Virus record (IMG/VR): IMGVR_UViG_2526164662_000035
Span: 1 to 19,618 of that record
Length of the DNA: 19,618 nucleotides
Strand: one strand, 5' to 3'
Origin: a virus
Lineage: Duplodnaviria > Heunggongvirae > Uroviricota > Caudoviricetes
This document shows, in pieces, positions 6,069 through 19,081 of the stretch. Under the pieces are notes generated by a model. The model made no database searches and was not told the origin of the DNA. It saw only the letters and a list, made by a program, of their open reading frames with translations. Within the stretch, counting starts at the first letter, position 1. The number at the start of each line of letters is the position of its first letter. Position numbers and translations under genes: made by a program.

Positions 6069-6114
6069 ATTCGTAATGCGAAGGTCGTAGGTTCGACTCC
6101 TATTATCGGCACCA
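6069..6114 (+). other. 3' fragment (46 nt) of tRNA-Thr (thrW-like); att site
   Basis: attcgtaatgcgaaggtcgtaggttcgactcctattatcggcacca matches the 3' 46 nt of E. coli thrW including CCA. The 5' half of the tRNA is not present upstream. A 46-bp thrW core is what I recall for P22-type attachment sites. Confidence 0.85.
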
Positions 6115-6721
6115 TCAAGAAAATCAATAACTTAGCTTAACTTCTCTAAGAAATTGTATCTTCTGTTATCACTTACAAACGCCTATACGTTGTTATGGGC
6201 TTTGGTAGTGTAACACGTATGGGCGAGTAGTTCCCAGGCTCAACCTCGTAACAAGTTCCTTTGAAGCTGGAAGACGTGCCACCGTCTCTAAACCTTCTAC
6301 CAAAACTCTTAGCAAGATGTTCCACACCTGGCGCGGTGTCCAATGATGCTACACGTCGAGATGACGTCGCAGAGGATAAACAGGCTAAATGATGGGAAGA
6401 GTTTTAAGTGCAATAGTGGATTAAAGCCCACCTCTTCAAAACCTAACTTGATCGGGAAAGAATCAAGCTCTAGCACGGTTTCGTCCACCGGAGTACAACG
6501 GGTGCCTGATAAGAGAAGAACTGCTAAGACTTCATAGCTTTTGTGAAAAAGCCCTTTTTAGTGGATATGCCTACGGCGCTTATTTTTTGGTATAACCATC
6601 AAAGGCGCTTTATGGCTCCTATTGTCTTGAAAATGTATCTTTACTTGTATTGTGTTTTATGCGTAGTCTCCCTGTGTAGTATGTAACTTGTTAATTTTCA
6701 TATGAATACAGAGGCAACACG

Positions 6722-6874
6722 ATGAAAAACATTGCAGCTATAAAACGTAATAACCGCAAGATTCACGCTCGTAAGTTCCTGTCTACGCCAGAGGGAAAAG
6801 CCTGGCTAGAGCGTAAACAGCGAGAGAACGAAGAAAGAAAACTCCTTAGTGAGTTGAAATGGCTTAAGGATTGA
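6722..6874 (+). CDS. Small basic protein (50 aa), hypothetical
   Basis: ATG with AGAGG 9 nt upstream. Product MKNIAAIKRNNRKIHARKFLSTPEGKAWLERKQRENEERKLLSELKWLKD. Followed by a long hairpin at 6884-6927. Below the 60-aa cutoff of the supplied ORF track. Confidence 0.35.
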   Translation: MKNIAAIKRNNRKIHARKFLSTPEGKAWLERKQRENEERKLLSELKWLKD

Positions 6875-6883
6875 ATCACCAGT

Positions 6884-6927
6884 AGGCGCATAACACATCC
6901 AGCAATCAAAGATGTGTTTGTGCGCCT
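6884..6927 (+). terminator. Long imperfect hairpin (AGGCGCATAACACATC ... GATGTGTTTGTGCGCCT) after the small ORF; possible terminator or RNA structure
   Basis: Stem of ~16 bp with an 11-nt loop read directly. The T-run (agttttttag) is ~20 nt downstream, so it is not a canonical intrinsic terminator. Confidence 0.3.
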
Positions 6928-7424
6928 GATAGTGAAATTATTAAAGTTTTTTAGTTAATGTAGCCATTGCATGAACGATGATCGCTAGTGAATCGATTTT
7001 ATCTCGAGGGGTAAAATAGATGAGGTATATGATGGTAACAATTACAGCTAAAGTAATTGTGGTTCTGCAGGTTTTTAAAATGGATAAGATAAAGCGCATA
7101 GATACCCCCTATTGATTTAACAACAACAAGGTATCATTTATTTTTTATTGCATGCAATGTGCAAATTTTCACATATAATAGCTTACTATTCACTTTGCAT
7201 GGTGTCAACAAGATGATGTGTTGTTTTGTTTGATTTGTTCAAGATAATATTTCATTTTCTCATCTATATAACTTGTGTTTTAGATAATTTCACTAATTGT
7301 AAAAGTTACGTATTGCTTAATAGCTGCCTTTTTATCTGAAATCGGCGCAAACGTGATCAATGTTTAACGCGAAGATCAGCGGCGTCAGGTCCACGCAGCG
7401 ACAATTCTCAAATATCAGGAGGCA

Positions 7425-7982
7425 TTACGCTTCCTGCTCTTTCTTGATACGTTGCACCGTCTGTGTGCTGACACTGAAATCTTTTGCTACGCTCCGAATT
7501 GATCCACCATTCGCGAGAGCGGCAACAATTCCCGCTCGATCAATTGCTTTTCCATTACCACGTTTTGCTATACGTCCAGCGGCCTTAGCTGCGGCAATCC
7601 CCTCACGTTGCCGCTCAAGCATCATTTCACGTTCCATTTGTGCCACTGCTGCAAGCACTGTGAGCATCATATTCCCTGCGGGAGAGTTCTTCCCTGTCTT
7701 AAAGTCTTCTTTATGGAAATGCACAGACACGCCGCGCTCTGTTAATTGCTCAACCGTTGCCAGTAGGTCGGCTGTATTACGGCAAAGTCGATCAATGCTG
7801 TGAACATGCAAAACATCACCTTCACGCACATAGTTCATCATTGCCTCAAACTGTGGGCGCTGGGTATTCTTGCCTGACGCTTTATCTTCAAAGACTTTAT
7901 CAAGAGTTACTCCAGCTAATTGACGGTCTGTGTTTTGTTGGACAGTCGATACCCTAATGTATCCAATATTAGCCATTTTCAT
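7425..7982 (-). CDS. Small serine recombinase (resolvase/invertase family, 185 aa)
   Basis: N-terminal catalytic motif GYIRVSTVQQNTDRQ with the conserved Ser, a central ...DRLCRNTADLL... segment, and a C-terminal HTH (GGSIRSVAKDFSVSTQTVQRIKK). Length and layout match gamma-delta/Tn3 TnpR-type resolvases. GGAA lies upstream of the ATG. Confidence 0.9.
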   Translation of the reverse strand: MKMANIGYIRVSTVQQNTDRQLAGVTLDKVFEDKASGKNTQRPQFEAMMNYVREGDVLHVHSIDRLCRNTADLLATVEQLTERGVSVHFHKEDFKTGKNSPAGNMMLTVLAAVAQMEREMMLERQREGIAAAKAAGRIAKRGNGKAIDRAGIVAALANGGSIRSVAKDFSVSTQTVQRIKKEQEA

Positions 7983-17562: not shown

Positions 17563-17603
17563 CCTTAAACACCTATGAAACGCTCTGTAACGAGATAATC
17601 ATA

Positions 17604-17635
17604 AAAGAGGCATTAGTCTATATTGAAGCCTCTTT
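17604..17635. terminator. Hairpin (AAAGAGGC-N16-GCCTCTTT) between the convergent 225-aa gene and the integrase
   Basis: 8-bp perfect stem read directly, flanked by A/T-rich sequence on both sides. Position suits a bidirectional terminator. Confidence 0.4.
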
Positions 17636-17642
17636 ATTACGT

Positions 17643-18920
17643 CTATAGCGTTGTTTTACGCCTTAAATTTGATTTTTTATTGATTGATAAGCCTTTCTCT
17701 ATTTCAGGGTAGCGTAAAAGCTCAATATATTTTTTAAGCTCTACTGGAGAAGCTGCATTCTTGCTATATGTGCGGAATGTTTCTGTATTGCCGCGCTGAT
17801 GGCCCAAAATTAAAGCTATGCGGTCCTCTGGAATTTGATTTCGATCAAGAAGCTGTGCTACTCCGTGTCTCAGAGAATGAAACACTTTCCTTTCTGTTCC
17901 CTTTTCCCCTAAAGCCTTTCGTTTAGCTCTTGTAAATCGTTGTGTATGCCACGTAGAGCGTTTACCGTCAGCACGTTCTGTAATGCTGGCGTGATAGAAC
18001 AAAAAGCCATTGTGAGGCTTTTCACGAAGAGATAACACCAATGGAGTGATAAGGCTATGCACAGGCACAAGACGTGCCGCAGCTTTCGTTTTTCCCTGTG
18101 TGATTTCAAAACACAGCACACCTTCGATCTCTTTCACATCGTCTATTGTGAGACTTGCTATCTCATTGATCCGCATACCTGTATATAAACCGATAAGACA
18201 CAAAGCCGTCATTTCTTTGTTTTCTGCTGAATTACCGGAAAATACTTGCAACACCTGCAATAGCTCTTTGTTAGAAAATGCCTCGTAGCTCTCTCTACTT
18301 TGTGCCACATCAAGCCTATGCCCTCGCCAGGGGGAGAGCGCCCTTTCTGGCGCATCGTGGTAACGTGATGAAGCTAATTCCCATAGCTGGGCCATTGGGC
18401 TGATATAATTTGCAATTGATTGTTGTGAAAGAGTTTTTTGCATGTGTTCAATCCAGCCTGTAACAGTGGTGCGGCTTACATCTTGCAATGCAATATCAGG
18501 CTTTTTACGGTAGGAGAGAAACATCTCTACCGCTTTTCTTGCCTTAGCTAAAGTGGCTGGCTTCTTCTTCGTGCTGTTAATTGTCAGGTAGATTTCAAGA
18601 ATTTTAAGCAATGACGGACACGAAGACGCTGTATCTTGCATTCTGGTAGCTGTTTTGGCGTATTTAGCCTTACTGCGTAACAGTTCCAGCGTGTTTTCTA
18701 TTGTGCTGTTTACAGGGGCAACACTCTCCCGTAAGCAATGGTATTCATCTGCAATCTGATCACGCTTTCGACGTGCCACACGAAGATTACTTGTGTGTAG
18801 ACTTCTGACAAACGTCCTTTTTCCTTCAAAAAAGGGCTGCATATACACAGGCAGCGTGATCCTTAAATAGTAGTTACCGTAAGAATCACAGATTAAGTAT
18901 TGGTTAGGCTTGTATCTCAT
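17643..18920 (-). CDS. int: Tyrosine site-specific integrase (phage integrase family)
   Basis: C-terminal catalytic signature: ...GMRINEIASLTIDDV... and ...HSLRHGVAQLLDRNQIPEDRIALILGHQRGNTETFRTYSK (R, H-x-x-R, and Y in TFRTY). Start placed at the ATG at 18918-18920, which has a GGAG Shine-Dalgarno. The ORF track extends the frame to 19007, but those upstream ATGs lack a ribosome-binding site. Confidence 0.9.
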   Translation of the reverse strand: MRYKPNQYLICDSYGNYYLRITLPVYMQPFFEGKRTFVRSLHTSNLRVARRKRDQIADEYHCLRESVAPVNSTIENTLELLRSKAKYAKTATRMQDTASSCPSLLKILEIYLTINSTKKKPATLAKARKAVEMFLSYRKKPDIALQDVSRTTVTGWIEHMQKTLSQQSIANYISPMAQLWELASSRYHDAPERALSPWRGHRLDVAQSRESYEAFSNKELLQVLQVFSGNSAENKEMTALCLIGLYTGMRINEIASLTIDDVKEIEGVLCFEITQGKTKAAARLVPVHSLITPLVLSLREKPHNGFLFYHASITERADGKRSTWHTQRFTRAKRKALGEKGTERKVFHSLRHGVAQLLDRNQIPEDRIALILGHQRGNTETFRTYSKNAASPVELKKYIELLRYPEIEKGLSINKKSNLRRKTTL

Positions 18921-19062
18921 AAAATCTCCGGCTAAAGTGTCGGAGCGTTTGTAATGTGAAAATTGATTGTGACGCATAGAAAATGATGATTTTTCTATAA
19001 GATTCAATCAATTAGTAATGGTCGTAGGTGATGGCATTAACACGAGATTAATCGAGTGTTTT

Positions 19063-19081
19063 ACTCCTATTATCGGCACCA
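19063..19081 (+). other. 19-bp copy of the tRNA-Thr 3' end (ACTCCTATTATCGGCACCA), direct repeat of 6096-6114; att junction next to the integrase
   Basis: Exact 19-nt identity to the 3' end of the 46-nt fragment at 6069-6114. Upstream, 19014-19030 (agtaatggtcgtaggtg) resembles the thrW segment cgtaatgcgaaggtcgtaggtt, so a degenerate longer tRNA-like att may span ~19014-19081. Confidence 0.65.

What the first reader, a model, noticed from the sequence alone, without database searches (positions are those of the whole stretch)
6069..19081. Compact ~13 kb integrative element with capsid genes but no portal, terminase or tail genes: candidate new satellite-like element
The segment is bounded by direct repeats of the tRNA-Thr 3' end and carries a tyrosine integrase at one end. 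Inside are a resolvase-type serine recombinase, an iteron/AT-rich origin-like region, a small-gene early cluster (RHH and winged-helix proteins) and a structural cluster with gpD-like and gpE-like head genes and a 613-aa coiled-coil protein. No ORF has a Walker-A terminase signature, and none has the size or composition of a portal, protease, tail tube or tape measure protein. Roughly a third of the element is ORF-free, unlike P4, PICI or cfPICI satellites as I know them. A capsid-only integrative element that would need a helper phage for packaging and tails does not match any described family I can place it in.
Basis: partly seen in the sequence, partly recalled or inferred. Interest (0 to 1): 0.8.

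Follow-up and report, generated by a model that had tools for sequence, protein, structure and literature searches.

The report
Mini phage-parasite island with capsid and tail genes
A 13-kb mobile island inserted at a tRNA gene carries its own capsid, tape-measure and tail-base genes but no DNA-packaging machinery. It belongs to a conserved, apparently undescribed family in enteric bacteria that most likely parasitises large virulent phi92/phAPEC8-type phages.

Summary
The segment is a real, discrete 12,967-bp element. It is bounded by a 25/28 direct repeat of the tRNA-Thr 3' end, has 39.7% GC and is 35% non-coding. The integrase, small serine recombinase, iteron origin, Rep-like gene and gpE-family capsid gene are all confirmed. 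The claim "no tail genes" is wrong: the 613-aa protein is a full-length tape measure homolog, and the next gene is a Dit-like baseplate/tube-initiator protein.

It is not a decaying prophage:
- In another strain it sits alone between thrW and core genes.
- About 10% of complete E. coli genomes match its backbone.
- The same architecture, 12.0-14.2 kb long, recurs in eight or more genera at three tRNA sites.
- Its genes are under purifying selection.
- No trace of terminase, portal, scaffold, sheath or tube exists in any frame.

All three structural proteins point to one phage group, the ~150-kb virulent Stephanstirmvirinae myoviruses (MCP 25%, TMP 23-42%, Dit 49-80% identity).

Best reading (about 0.6): a new satellite family that supplies its own capsid shell and, like Vibrio PLEs, its own TMP and baseplate protein for chimeric tails, taking everything else from the helper. 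No excision or particle evidence was obtained. I found no paper describing it.

The parts
6069..6114 (+). 3' fragment (anticodon loop to CCA) of tRNA-Thr(CGU). In this window it is the right-end att remnant of the upstream lambdoid element and the attL of the 13-kb element.
   Evidence: No intact tRNA in the window. The sequence is identical to the 3' part of intact thrW in L003/L004. tRNA-Thr(cgt) is called in L001.
6091..6118 (.). attL copy of the direct repeat (exact core ACTCCTATTATCGGCACCAT)
6722..6874 (+). Conserved 50-aa ORF of unknown function, in the left non-coding/cargo region
   Evidence: 100% identical in L003/L004 and annotated in RefSeq. No family match.
7425..7982 (-). Small serine recombinase (resolvase/invertase type with a C-terminal HTH). 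Inferred role: multimer resolution for the replicon.
   Evidence: PF00239 1e-38, phrog_125 2e-62; dN/dS 0-0.15. A small tyrosine recombinase occupies the same position in other genera. No invertase crossover motif found.
8503..8710 (.). Iteron-type origin: five ~23-bp repeats (CCCnnACAGAAnnnTGTTA) at 8503-8640 plus an AT-rich tract at 8641-8710
8757..9157 (.). Cluster of nested inverted repeats; function unknown
   Evidence: Fold z = -3.55 (+ strand) and -2.85 (- strand). No Rfam hit.
9501..9529 (+). Best sigma-70-like promoter (TTGACA-17-TAAAGT with TG), upstream of the early operon
   Evidence: The flanking 9436-9650 is the only non-coding stretch alignable with the Klebsiella element (67%).
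9650..10040 (+). Two small early ORFs (66 aa; 56/75 aa) of unknown function
   Evidence: Conserved in position. No significant family match.
10070..10663 (+). Rep-like winged-HTH replication initiator
   Evidence: phrog_270 'replication initiation protein' 1e-8; O-like PHROGs; HTH_36 7e-4. This slot is variable in other genera (207-497 aa).
10673..11991 (+). Four conserved small early/middle ORFs (89, 127, 67/81 and 102 aa) of unknown function
   Evidence: Conserved order. dN/dS 0.05-0.8. No Pfam, PHROG, PADLOC or NCBIfam match.
12895..12954 (+). Terminator-like hairpin in front of the structural operon; an equivalent hairpin is present in all family members examined
   Evidence: (I10)
12983..13192 (+). 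69-aa first gene of the structural operon; unknown function; part of the swappable capsid cassette
13192..13566 (+). 124-aa protein immediately upstream of the MCP; probable head decoration/cement protein (weak evidence)
   Evidence: Position matches phi92 gp123, phAPEC8 gp115 and P7-1 gp70. Top but non-significant fold hits are decoration proteins. No sequence support.
13583..14611 (+). Major capsid protein, gpE/HK97-fold, of the FelixO1/rV5/phi92/Pakpunavirus class
   Evidence: PF03864 6e-18. hhalign to phi92 gp124 98.4%, E 4e-15. PDB profile hits to P7-1 gp71 and phi92 gp124. dN/dS 0.09.
14764..14961 (+). 65-aa four-helix, HTH-like protein preceding the TMP gene; function unknown
   Evidence: AF2 pLDDT 87. 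Nearest folds are TetR-type HTH domains, not significant. Scattered weak HTH Pfam hits.
14996..16837 (+). Tape measure protein homolog, 613 aa
   Evidence: phrog_16051 6e-31. tblastn colinear with phi92 gp134 (res 1-656) and phAPEC8 gp104. Termini and a central block are conserved. dN/dS 0.20-0.25.
16885..17562 (+). Dit-like baseplate / tail-tube-initiator protein (homolog of phi92 gp135 and phAPEC8 gp103, the gene after the TMP)
   Evidence: PF21821 1.6e-27. 49-53% identical to the phage homologs. hhalign 100%, E 2e-78. dN/dS 0.03-0.08.
17643..19007 (-). Tyrosine integrase (RefSeq start gives 425 aa, 17643-18920)
   Evidence: PF00589, DUF6538, SAM-like domain; phrog_1 1e-32; dN/dS 0.08-0.12
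19058..19085 (.). attR copy of the direct repeat; the element-side arm is invariant among copies

Best explanation
The segment is a member of a previously unrecognised family of 12-14 kb integrative phage-satellite-like elements of Enterobacterales.

Shown:
- It integrates through a tyrosine integrase into the 3' end of a tRNA gene (thrW here).
- It has a plasmid-like replication module (Rep-like initiator, iteron origin, small recombinase).
- It has a late operon encoding a gpE/HK97-fold capsid protein with two small partners, a small HTH-like protein, a full-length tape measure protein and, in many members, a Dit-like baseplate/tube-initiator protein.
- It lacks terminase, portal, scaffold/protease, neck, sheath, tube, the rest of the baseplate, fibres and lysis genes.

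Inferred: on infection by a large virulent myovirus of the phi92/phAPEC8 group (Stephanstirmvirinae), the element excises, replicates from its iteron origin, and expresses its late operon. It builds small capsids from its own MCP on helper portal/scaffold, is packaged by the helper terminase, and receives chimeric contractile tails. In those tails its own TMP (and Dit-like protein) replace the helper's, while sheath, tube, hub and fibres are hijacked, as shown experimentally for Vibrio PLEs with ICP1. Helper interference is expected as a by-product.
For: 1. Discrete and complete. att repeats lie 12,967 bp apart. In strain CAU16175 the element is alone between intact thrW and LysR-remnant/paoD.
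2. Maintained, not decaying. There are 16 intact genes in the same order in divergent copies. dN/dS is 0.03-0.25 for MCP, TMP, Dit, Int and SerRec.
3. A family. The same architecture occurs in Serratia, Klebsiella, Enterobacter, Citrobacter, Kluyvera, Buttiauxella and Scandinavium. It uses three tRNA sites, Thr, Gly and Leu, and its length stays within 12.0-14.2 kb, as expected for a capsid-limited genome. 546 of 5,426 complete E. coli genomes match the backbone.
4. Helper dependence. There is no portal, terminase, scaffold, sheath or tube in any frame.
5. One candidate helper group. The MCP (25%), TMP (23-30%; 40-42% for the Klebsiella element) and Dit (49-53%; 80% for L016 versus Klebsiella phages FKP3/KP2025) all have their best matches in Stephanstirmvirinae. 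The genes also follow the order of that phage's module.
6. Modular reassortment. Capsid cassettes only 20% identical sit in 97-99% identical backbones. The same cassette also occurs with a different tail/integrase module at a second site.
7. Precedent. PLEs encode their own TMP, TAC and sometimes BhuB (20/20/41% identical to ICP1) and assemble chimeric tails (PMC12987554). EPIP satellites also carry MCP plus TMP (PMC12822802).
Against: - There is no direct evidence of excision, replication, packaging or transfer. The attP junction is absent from IMG/VR and JGI metagenome contigs. IMG/VR hits are prophage-prediction contigs, and the ~13-kb contigs examined are integrated copies.
- No TerS-like or pac/cos feature was identified. 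The 65-aa HTH-like protein has no significant fold match, and the non-coding DNA has no similarity to phage DNA.
- The MCP is only about 25% identical to that of the proposed helpers, so compatibility with helper portal and scaffold is unproven.
- The helper assignment rests on homology, not on co-occurrence or experiment. An unsampled temperate relative could be the real helper.
Confidence: 0.6

Rival explanations
1. Non-transmissible (or only passively mobilised) anti-phage island. The diverged MCP, TMP and Dit homologs act as dominant-negative 'poison subunits' that co-assemble with and wreck the heads and tails of infecting phi92/phAPEC8-type phages. The integrase and replicon only amplify gene dosage after infection.
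For: - The structural genes are homologous to one virulent phage group, yet the set is incomplete.
- Tail-assembly interference is a known defence theme in satellites (PMC11364771 listed; PLE11 Rta).
- The swappable, highly divergent capsid cassettes resemble arms-race diversification.
- No packaging determinant was found.
Against: - No PADLOC defence model matches.
- The TMP keeps both termini and near-helper length (613 versus 659 aa), and the MCP is full length under purifying selection. That is as expected for working parts.
- The tight 12-14 kb size across genera and tRNA sites and spread to eight or more genera imply a dedicated transfer route.
- Interference and satellite transfer are not mutually exclusive (PLE does both).
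Confidence: 0.17
2. An old, degraded prophage remnant (a 'grounded' prophage of a temperate relative of this myovirus class) that retains a few structural genes by chance and is inherited mostly vertically.
For: - thrW is a hotspot full of remnants. The window's own left 6 kb is one, and Sakai carries Sp1/Sp2 there.
- 35% of the element is non-coding DNA.
- The element was long subsumed in the 20-kb 'thrW PAI' / VAT-PAI (inferred).
Against: - The same 16-gene architecture and size occur in eight or more genera at three different tRNA sites with different integrases.
- All genes are intact with dN/dS well below 1.
- No pseudogene traces of the missing roughly 20 structural genes exist in any frame.
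- No related full-size phage is found in 50,697 phage records.
- Near-identical copies occur in unrelated hosts and contexts.
Confidence: 0.08
3. A satellite of a different helper: an as-yet-unsequenced temperate or virulent phage with a gpE-type head and a TMP/Dit module closer to the element than the Stephanstirmvirinae are.
For: - MCP identity to Stephanstirmvirinae is only about 25%, and the alternative cassette has no phage hit at all.
- The MCP profile matches Pakpunavirus P7-1 as well as it matches phi92.
Against: - The TMP (up to 42%) and Dit (up to 80%) are specifically closest to Stephanstirmvirinae of the matching host genera.
- All three proteins converge on the same phages, for example phiWec188/190.
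Confidence: 0.12

Closest known systems
[quoted passage not shown]
   Same: - A small integrative element with its own Rep and iteron-type origin.
- The (proposed) helper is a large virulent myovirus.
- It encodes its own TMP and, in some members only, a baseplate protein, at low-to-moderate identity to the helper's (PLE: 20% and 41%; here 23-42% and 49-80%). This implies chimeric tails (PMC12987554).
- It has no terminase or portal.
   Different: - PLEs steal ICP1's coat protein and remodel it with TcaP, whereas this element has its own MCP and partners.
- PLEs use a large serine recombinase, whereas this element uses a tyrosine integrase at tRNA genes.
- No tail assembly chaperone was recognised here.
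- The host clade differs.
- Sequence homology to PLE genes was not tested, because no PLE sequences were available to me.
cf-PICI (capsid-forming PICIs, e.g. EcCIEDL933)
   Same: An enterobacterial integrative satellite of similar size that encodes its own major capsid protein. Some cf-PICIs reportedly carry putative tmp genes (Ext. Data Fig. 10).
   Different: cf-PICIs encode the whole head and packaging set (protease, portal, connectors, TerS, TerL) plus alpA and pri-rep, and they steal only tails (abstract). Here none of those is present, and the MCP belongs to a different family (PF03864).
EPIPs (mycobacterial satellites of prophage HerbertWM)
   Same: A satellite carrying MCP plus TMP, with altered tails proposed (PMC12822802).
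   Different: EPIPs also have TerS, scaffold, head-to-tail adaptor/stopper and a serine integrase. Their host is an actinobacterium and their helper is temperate. No homology was tested.
P4-like satellites (e.g. Sakai Sp2 at the same thrW site)
   Same: A ~12-13 kb tRNA-integrated satellite in E. coli. Sp2 occupies thrW.
   Different: P4 has Sid/Psu/delta/alpha-primase and no MCP or TMP. There is no shared gene content apart from the class of integrase.
Structural module of Stephanstirmvirinae phages (phi92, phAPEC8)
   Same: The MCP, TMP and gp135/gp103 homologs appear in the same relative order, with a terminator after the MCP.
   Different: The element keeps only 3 of about 24 module genes. 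It is integrative, 13 kb versus ~150 kb, and its identities to the phage proteins are only 23-53%.

Membership tests
cf-PICI | Complete head and packaging module: MCP, prohead protease, portal, head-tail connectors, TerS, TerL | tested here: not met
   Only an MCP is present, and it belongs to a different Pfam family. tblastn with helper-class portal, TerL and scaffold finds nothing.
cf-PICI | PICI-type regulation/replication module (alpA, pri-rep primase-helicase) | tested here: not met
   No AlpA or primase/helicase match in Pfam, PHROGs or NCBIfam. A small wHTH Rep-like protein is present instead.
Classical PICI | int plus att-flanked ~10-15 kb island | tested here: met
Classical PICI | alpA, pri-rep, and a packaging-redirection gene (terS, ppi, rpp or cpm) | tested here: not met
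P4-like satellites | sid, psu, delta, alpha primase, alpA | tested here: not met
   No such matches. Compare the genuine P4-like Sp2 annotation.
PLE | Satellite-encoded TMP (with or without a baseplate hub) related to the helper's, for chimeric tails | tested here: met
   The genes are present and related to one myovirus group. Incorporation into tails was not tested.
PLE | Own Rep protein plus iteron origin | tested here: met
   (functional analogy; homology to PLE RepA not tested)
PLE | Large serine recombinase integrase; Vibrio host; homology to PLE core genes; uses the helper's coat protein | tested here: not met
   The integrase is a tyrosine recombinase. The hosts are Enterobacterales. 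The element has its own MCP. Homology to PLE genes was not tested.
Phage satellite (functional definition) | Lacks essential virion/packaging genes | tested here: met
Phage satellite (functional definition) | Helper-dependent induction, packaging and transfer | not testable with these tools
   Only negative database searches for a circular junction are available.
Defective prophage remnant | Idiosyncratic gene content, pseudogenes, relaxed selection, no independent distribution | tested here: not met
Lambda gpD-type decoration protein (the 124-aa ORF) | Sequence or fold similarity to gpD/SHP-type trimeric cement proteins | tested here: inconclusive
   No sequence or profile hit. The AF2 model has pLDDT 60. 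The top Foldseek hits are decoration proteins but with E of 0.08-0.3. Positional analogy only.

The most novel reading that the evidence does not exclude
Enterobacterales harbour a widespread, undescribed satellite family that parasitises virulent ~150-kb Stephanstirmvirinae myoviruses, making it an enteric counterpart of the Vibrio PLE-ICP1 system. It would combine two strategies not previously seen together. It builds its own small capsid shell from a satellite MCP on stolen portal, scaffold and terminase. It also assembles chimeric contractile tails around a satellite TMP and tube-initiator. Capsid and tail modules would reassort as cassettes to track, or escape, different helpers.
Probability: 0.4. 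Interest if true: 0.85.

Novelty: new variant of a known kind. Interest (0 to 1): 0.72.

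Why it matters
**Biology.** If confirmed, this would be a new satellite family, and it sits in the best-studied bacteria. About 10% of complete E. coli genomes match its backbone, including ExPEC/APEC strains where it forms most of the so-called 'thrW/VAT pathogenicity island'. 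Its proposed helpers are virulent phages. Satellites of virulent phages are so far known mainly from Vibrio (PLE, PICMI).

**Phage therapy.** phi92/phAPEC8-type phages are popular therapy candidates. A resident element that hijacks or poisons their heads and tails would affect host range, efficacy and gene transfer during treatment.

**Mechanism.** The gene set (own MCP and TMP, with or without a baseplate protein, but no portal or terminase) gives a tractable E. coli system for two open questions. One is how a foreign capsid protein is nucleated on another phage's portal. The other is why satellites replace the tape measure, a question raised but not answered by the 2026 PLE work.

Tried and rejected
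- **Sakai Sp2 / CP-933H (recalled from memory).** Rejected: Sp2 at thrW is a P4-like element with Sid, Psu and primase.
- **Missing genes just outside the element.** Rejected. The window's left 6 kb is a separate lambdoid tail-fibre remnant.
- **Small late proteins versus phi92/phAPEC8 proteins.** BLASTP and hhalign of the 69-, 124- and 65-aa proteins against every head/neck/tail protein gave no significant match.
- **65-aa protein as TerS/Nu1/Xis-like.** The model is confident but has no significant fold hit. Pfam gives only scattered weak HTH hits.
- **Invertible switch for the invertase-family recombinase.** No crossover-site motif and no inversion among the copies compared.
- **Borrowed pac/cos site or origin.** The non-coding stretches have no similarity to phage DNA. 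Rfam finds nothing in the element.
- **Known defence systems.** No PADLOC match.
- **Circular or excised form.** The attP junction pattern was not found in IMG/VR or metagenome contigs. The ~13-kb contigs turned out to be integrated copies.
- **Literature.** Ten searches found no description of this family. The original VAT-PAI paper is not held.
- **Self-correction.** An earlier impression that the TMP N-terminus is element-specific was wrong. The global alignment shows the extreme N-terminus is conserved too.

Full report
**1. What is in the sequence**

The claimed boundaries are real. A 28-nt direct repeat (25/28 identical, with a 20-bp exact core ACTCCTATTATCGGCACCAT) lies at 6091-6118 and 19058-19085, 12,967 bp apart. 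ARAGORN finds no intact tRNA in the window. The left copy ends a 3' fragment (about 6069-6114) of tRNA-Thr(CGU), whose 5' half has been replaced.

The window's first 6 kb is the tail-fibre end of a separate lambdoid remnant (StfP, Tfa, acyltransferase, GIY-YIG, AraC). The two elements therefore sit in tandem at thrW. The 13-kb element has 39.7% GC against 50.5% in the chromosomal flank, and it is 65% coding.

**2. Gene content**

- a tyrosine integrase at the right end (PF00589, DUF6538);
- a small serine recombinase of the resolvase/invertase type (PF00239 1e-38);
- five ~23-bp iterons followed by an AT-rich tract;
- a Rep-like winged-HTH protein (phrog_270 1e-8);
- a gpE-family major capsid protein (PF03864 6e-18).

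Contradicted:
- The 613-aa "coiled-coil" protein is a tape measure protein. It matches phrog_16051 at 6e-31. tblastn shows it is colinear with phi92 gp134 (residues 1-656) and phAPEC8 gp104. Similarity peaks at both termini and in a central block.
- The next gene is a Dit-like baseplate/tube-initiator protein (PF21821 1.6e-27). It is the homolog of phi92 gp135 and phAPEC8 gp103, the gene that follows the TMP in those phages (hhalign 100%, E 2e-78).

Weak or unresolved:
- "gpD-like" for the 124-aa protein is not supported by sequence or profile searches. A moderate AF2 model (pLDDT 60) gives non-significant top hits to same-sized head-decoration proteins in both PDB and BFVD. The gene occupies the position of the decoration gene in phi92, phAPEC8 and Pakpunavirus P7-1. 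This is plausible but unproven.
- The 65-aa protein before the TMP gene models confidently as a four-helix, HTH-like domain, with no significant structural match.

**3. What is absent**

Pfam, PHROGs, NCBIfam and PADLOC detect no terminase, portal, protease, scaffold, neck, sheath, tube, lysis or known defence proteins. I ran tblastn with about 24 head, neck, tail and baseplate proteins of phi92 and phAPEC8 against all six frames of the element. Only MCP, TMP and gp135 counterparts were found, and there were no pseudogene traces in the non-coding DNA. The only Walker-A pattern is a non-conserved chance match inside the MCP.

**4. Not a remnant, and the missing genes are not next door**

- In E. 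coli CAU16175 the same element (99.9% identical) lies alone between proA-thrW and a LysR-remnant/paoD.
- In ExPEC/APEC strains it lies between thrW and the vat segment. It therefore makes up most of the 20-kb, 41%-GC "thrW PAI" listed in PMC7545054 (this equivalence is inferred).
- Divergent copies keep the same 16 intact genes and the same two long non-coding gaps.
- dN/dS is 0.09 for the MCP, 0.20-0.25 for the TMP, 0.03-0.08 for Dit, 0.08-0.12 for the integrase and 0-0.15 for the serine recombinase.
- 546 of 5,426 complete E. coli genomes match the TMP-Dit-int backbone, in at least two sequence lineages.

**5. A family across genera**

MCP homologs at 39-79% identity occur in Cronobacter, Klebsiella, Citrobacter, Enterobacter, Dryocola and Serratia, and in Buttiauxella, Kluyvera and Scandinavium.

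In every context examined the architecture is the same:
- a small recombinase;
- a ~1.5-kb gap;
- small early genes and a variable Rep-like gene;
- a second gap with a terminator hairpin;
- genes of ~70 aa, ~120 aa, MCP, ~63 aa and a ~615-630-aa TMP;
- a variable slot, which holds a Dit-like gene in many members;
- an integrase.

Twelve members bounded by tRNA 3'-end repeats measure 12.0-14.2 kb. They use tRNA-Thr(CGU), tRNA-Gly(CCC) or tRNA-Leu(CAA). The narrow size range, despite turnover of sequence, integrase and cargo, is what a capsid-limited genome would show.

**6. Modular exchange**

- In strain GPEC1186 the backbone is 97-99% identical to the window, but the three-gene capsid cassette is only 35%, 30% and 20% identical. 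Its 343-aa protein is still an MCP of the same family (hhalign 96.8%, E 2e-10), although it has no Pfam or phage hit.
- Conversely, the window's capsid cassette (124-aa protein 98% identical) occurs with a different integrase, TMP (633 aa) and Dit (218 aa) at a second E. coli site.

**7. Candidate helper**

All three structural proteins have their best matches in one phage group, the ~150-kb virulent myoviruses of the Stephanstirmvirinae (phi92/Justusliebigvirus, phAPEC8/Phapecoctavirus, phiWec188/190).
- The MCP is about 25% identical to theirs.
- The TMP is 23-30% identical, rising to 40-42% for the Klebsiella element.
- The Dit-like protein is 49-53% identical, rising to 80% for element L016 against Klebsiella phages FKP3 and KP2025.

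The element's late operon reads like two excerpts of that phage module in the original order: decoration-like gene plus MCP, then small gene, TMP and gp135. The neck, sheath, tube and chaperone genes between them are missing, as are the terminase, portal and scaffold genes upstream.

**8. Mechanism**

Shown: the gene repertoire, its incompleteness, its conservation and its relationship to a single phage group.

Inferred: the life cycle. The closest mechanistic precedent is experimental. Vibrio PLEs are satellites of the virulent myovirus ICP1. They encode their own TMP, chaperone and sometimes a baseplate-hub protein, at 20%, 20% and 41% identity to ICP1's. They assemble chimeric tails from these plus hijacked sheath, tube, baseplate and fibres. 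Not all PLEs carry the hub gene, and putative tmp genes were noted in other satellites (PMC12987554). Mycobacterial EPIPs also carry MCP plus TMP.

The present family shows the same tail pattern but adds its own capsid protein, as cf-PICIs do. It does so without the cf-PICI portal, protease and terminase set.

I therefore propose helper-triggered excision, iteron-driven replication (with the small recombinase resolving multimers), small capsids built from the element's MCP on helper portal and scaffold, packaging by the helper terminase, and chimeric tails.

Confidence is about 0.6 for two reasons. No excised or packaged form was found, and no packaging determinant was identified.

**9. Rivals**

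- A decoy-subunit defence island (about 0.17).
- A satellite of an unsampled helper (about 0.12).
- A vertically inherited remnant (about 0.08), which is largely refuted by sections 4-6.

**10. Novelty**

Ten full-text searches and several targeted reads found no description of this family or of any satellite of Stephanstirmvirinae, rV5 or FelixO1-type phages. It fails the defining features of P4-like, PICI, cf-PICI and PLE families (see the membership table).

I rate it a new variant of a known kind: a phage satellite with an unprecedented combination of its own MCP and its own TMP and baseplate protein, but no portal or terminase. The caveat is that the library searched is incomplete, and the original VAT-PAI paper was unavailable.

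Noticed in passing
window 1-6068: A separate lambdoid/e14-like prophage remnant (tail fibre StfP, Tfa, acyltransferase, LEM-3-like GIY-YIG, AraC regulator). It is integrated in tandem at thrW and resembles the right end of Sakai Sp1. Its right-end att is the tRNA fragment at 6069-6114.
   Followed up: partly
window 12983-14611 versus L003 9720-11351: The three-gene capsid cassette (69 aa, 124 aa, MCP) is replaced by an allele only 35%, 30% and 20% identical, inside a 97-99% identical backbone. The alternative MCP has no Pfam or phage hit but is homologous by hhalign.
   Followed up: yes
window 7425-7982; L005 3138-3689, L006 2968-3585, L008 4166-4726: Non-orthologous displacement. The small recombinase next to attL is a serine recombinase in the E. 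coli elements but a short (183-205 aa) tyrosine recombinase in the Serratia, Klebsiella and Enterobacter elements, at the same position and orientation.
   Followed up: partly
window 8740-9170: A dense cluster of nested inverted repeats just right of the iterons. It folds better than shuffles on both strands (z = -3.55 and -2.85). There is no Rfam hit and no similarity to phage DNA. It could be an origin accessory, a res site or a pac site.
   Followed up: partly
window 9135-9339: About 144-173 bp of extra sequence relative to L003/L004, bounded by a 32-nt imperfect direct repeat (9135-9166 / 9308-9339). It looks like a local duplication in the non-coding region.
   Followed up: no
window 9530-9650: The 5' leader of the early operon contains a hairpin followed by a T-run (…gaagcccaaggcttgcaaggtgtctttttctttt…) just before the first early gene, which could be an attenuator. 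This is the only non-coding stretch alignable with the Klebsiella element (67%).
   Followed up: no
L026 1-1760 and 13279-14990: In Citrobacter sp. NCU1, about 1.7 kb including an integrase gene is repeated at a 13,277-bp offset. This suggests two family members (or an element plus a remnant) in tandem at tRNA-Gly.
   Followed up: no
L029-L031 (Logan E. coli contigs): A second E. coli integration site for the family, between a LysM/M23 peptidase gene and type-III-secretion genes (SpaO, FliP-like). The element there has the same capsid cassette but different TMP, Dit and integrase alleles.
   Followed up: partly
window 4170-4248: Weak sub-threshold Rfam hits in the neighbouring remnant: tRNA-Sec model 27.8 bits (E 0.08) on the + strand, and a plastid 3'UTR model 37 bits (E 1e-4) on the - strand. 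This may be a tRNA-like or hairpin structure in an intergenic region.
   Followed up: no
window 19208-19618 (-): A truncated LysR-family gene (substrate-binding domain only), annotated as a pseudogene in CAU16175. It marks the chromosomal side of attR, and the pao operon follows in that strain.
   Followed up: partly
L003/L004 right of the element: In ExPEC/APEC strains the element is followed by an Arm-domain integrase fragment, a MarR regulator and vat. The published 20-kb 'thrW PAI'/VAT-PAI therefore appears to be this element plus a ~7-kb vat segment.
   Followed up: partly
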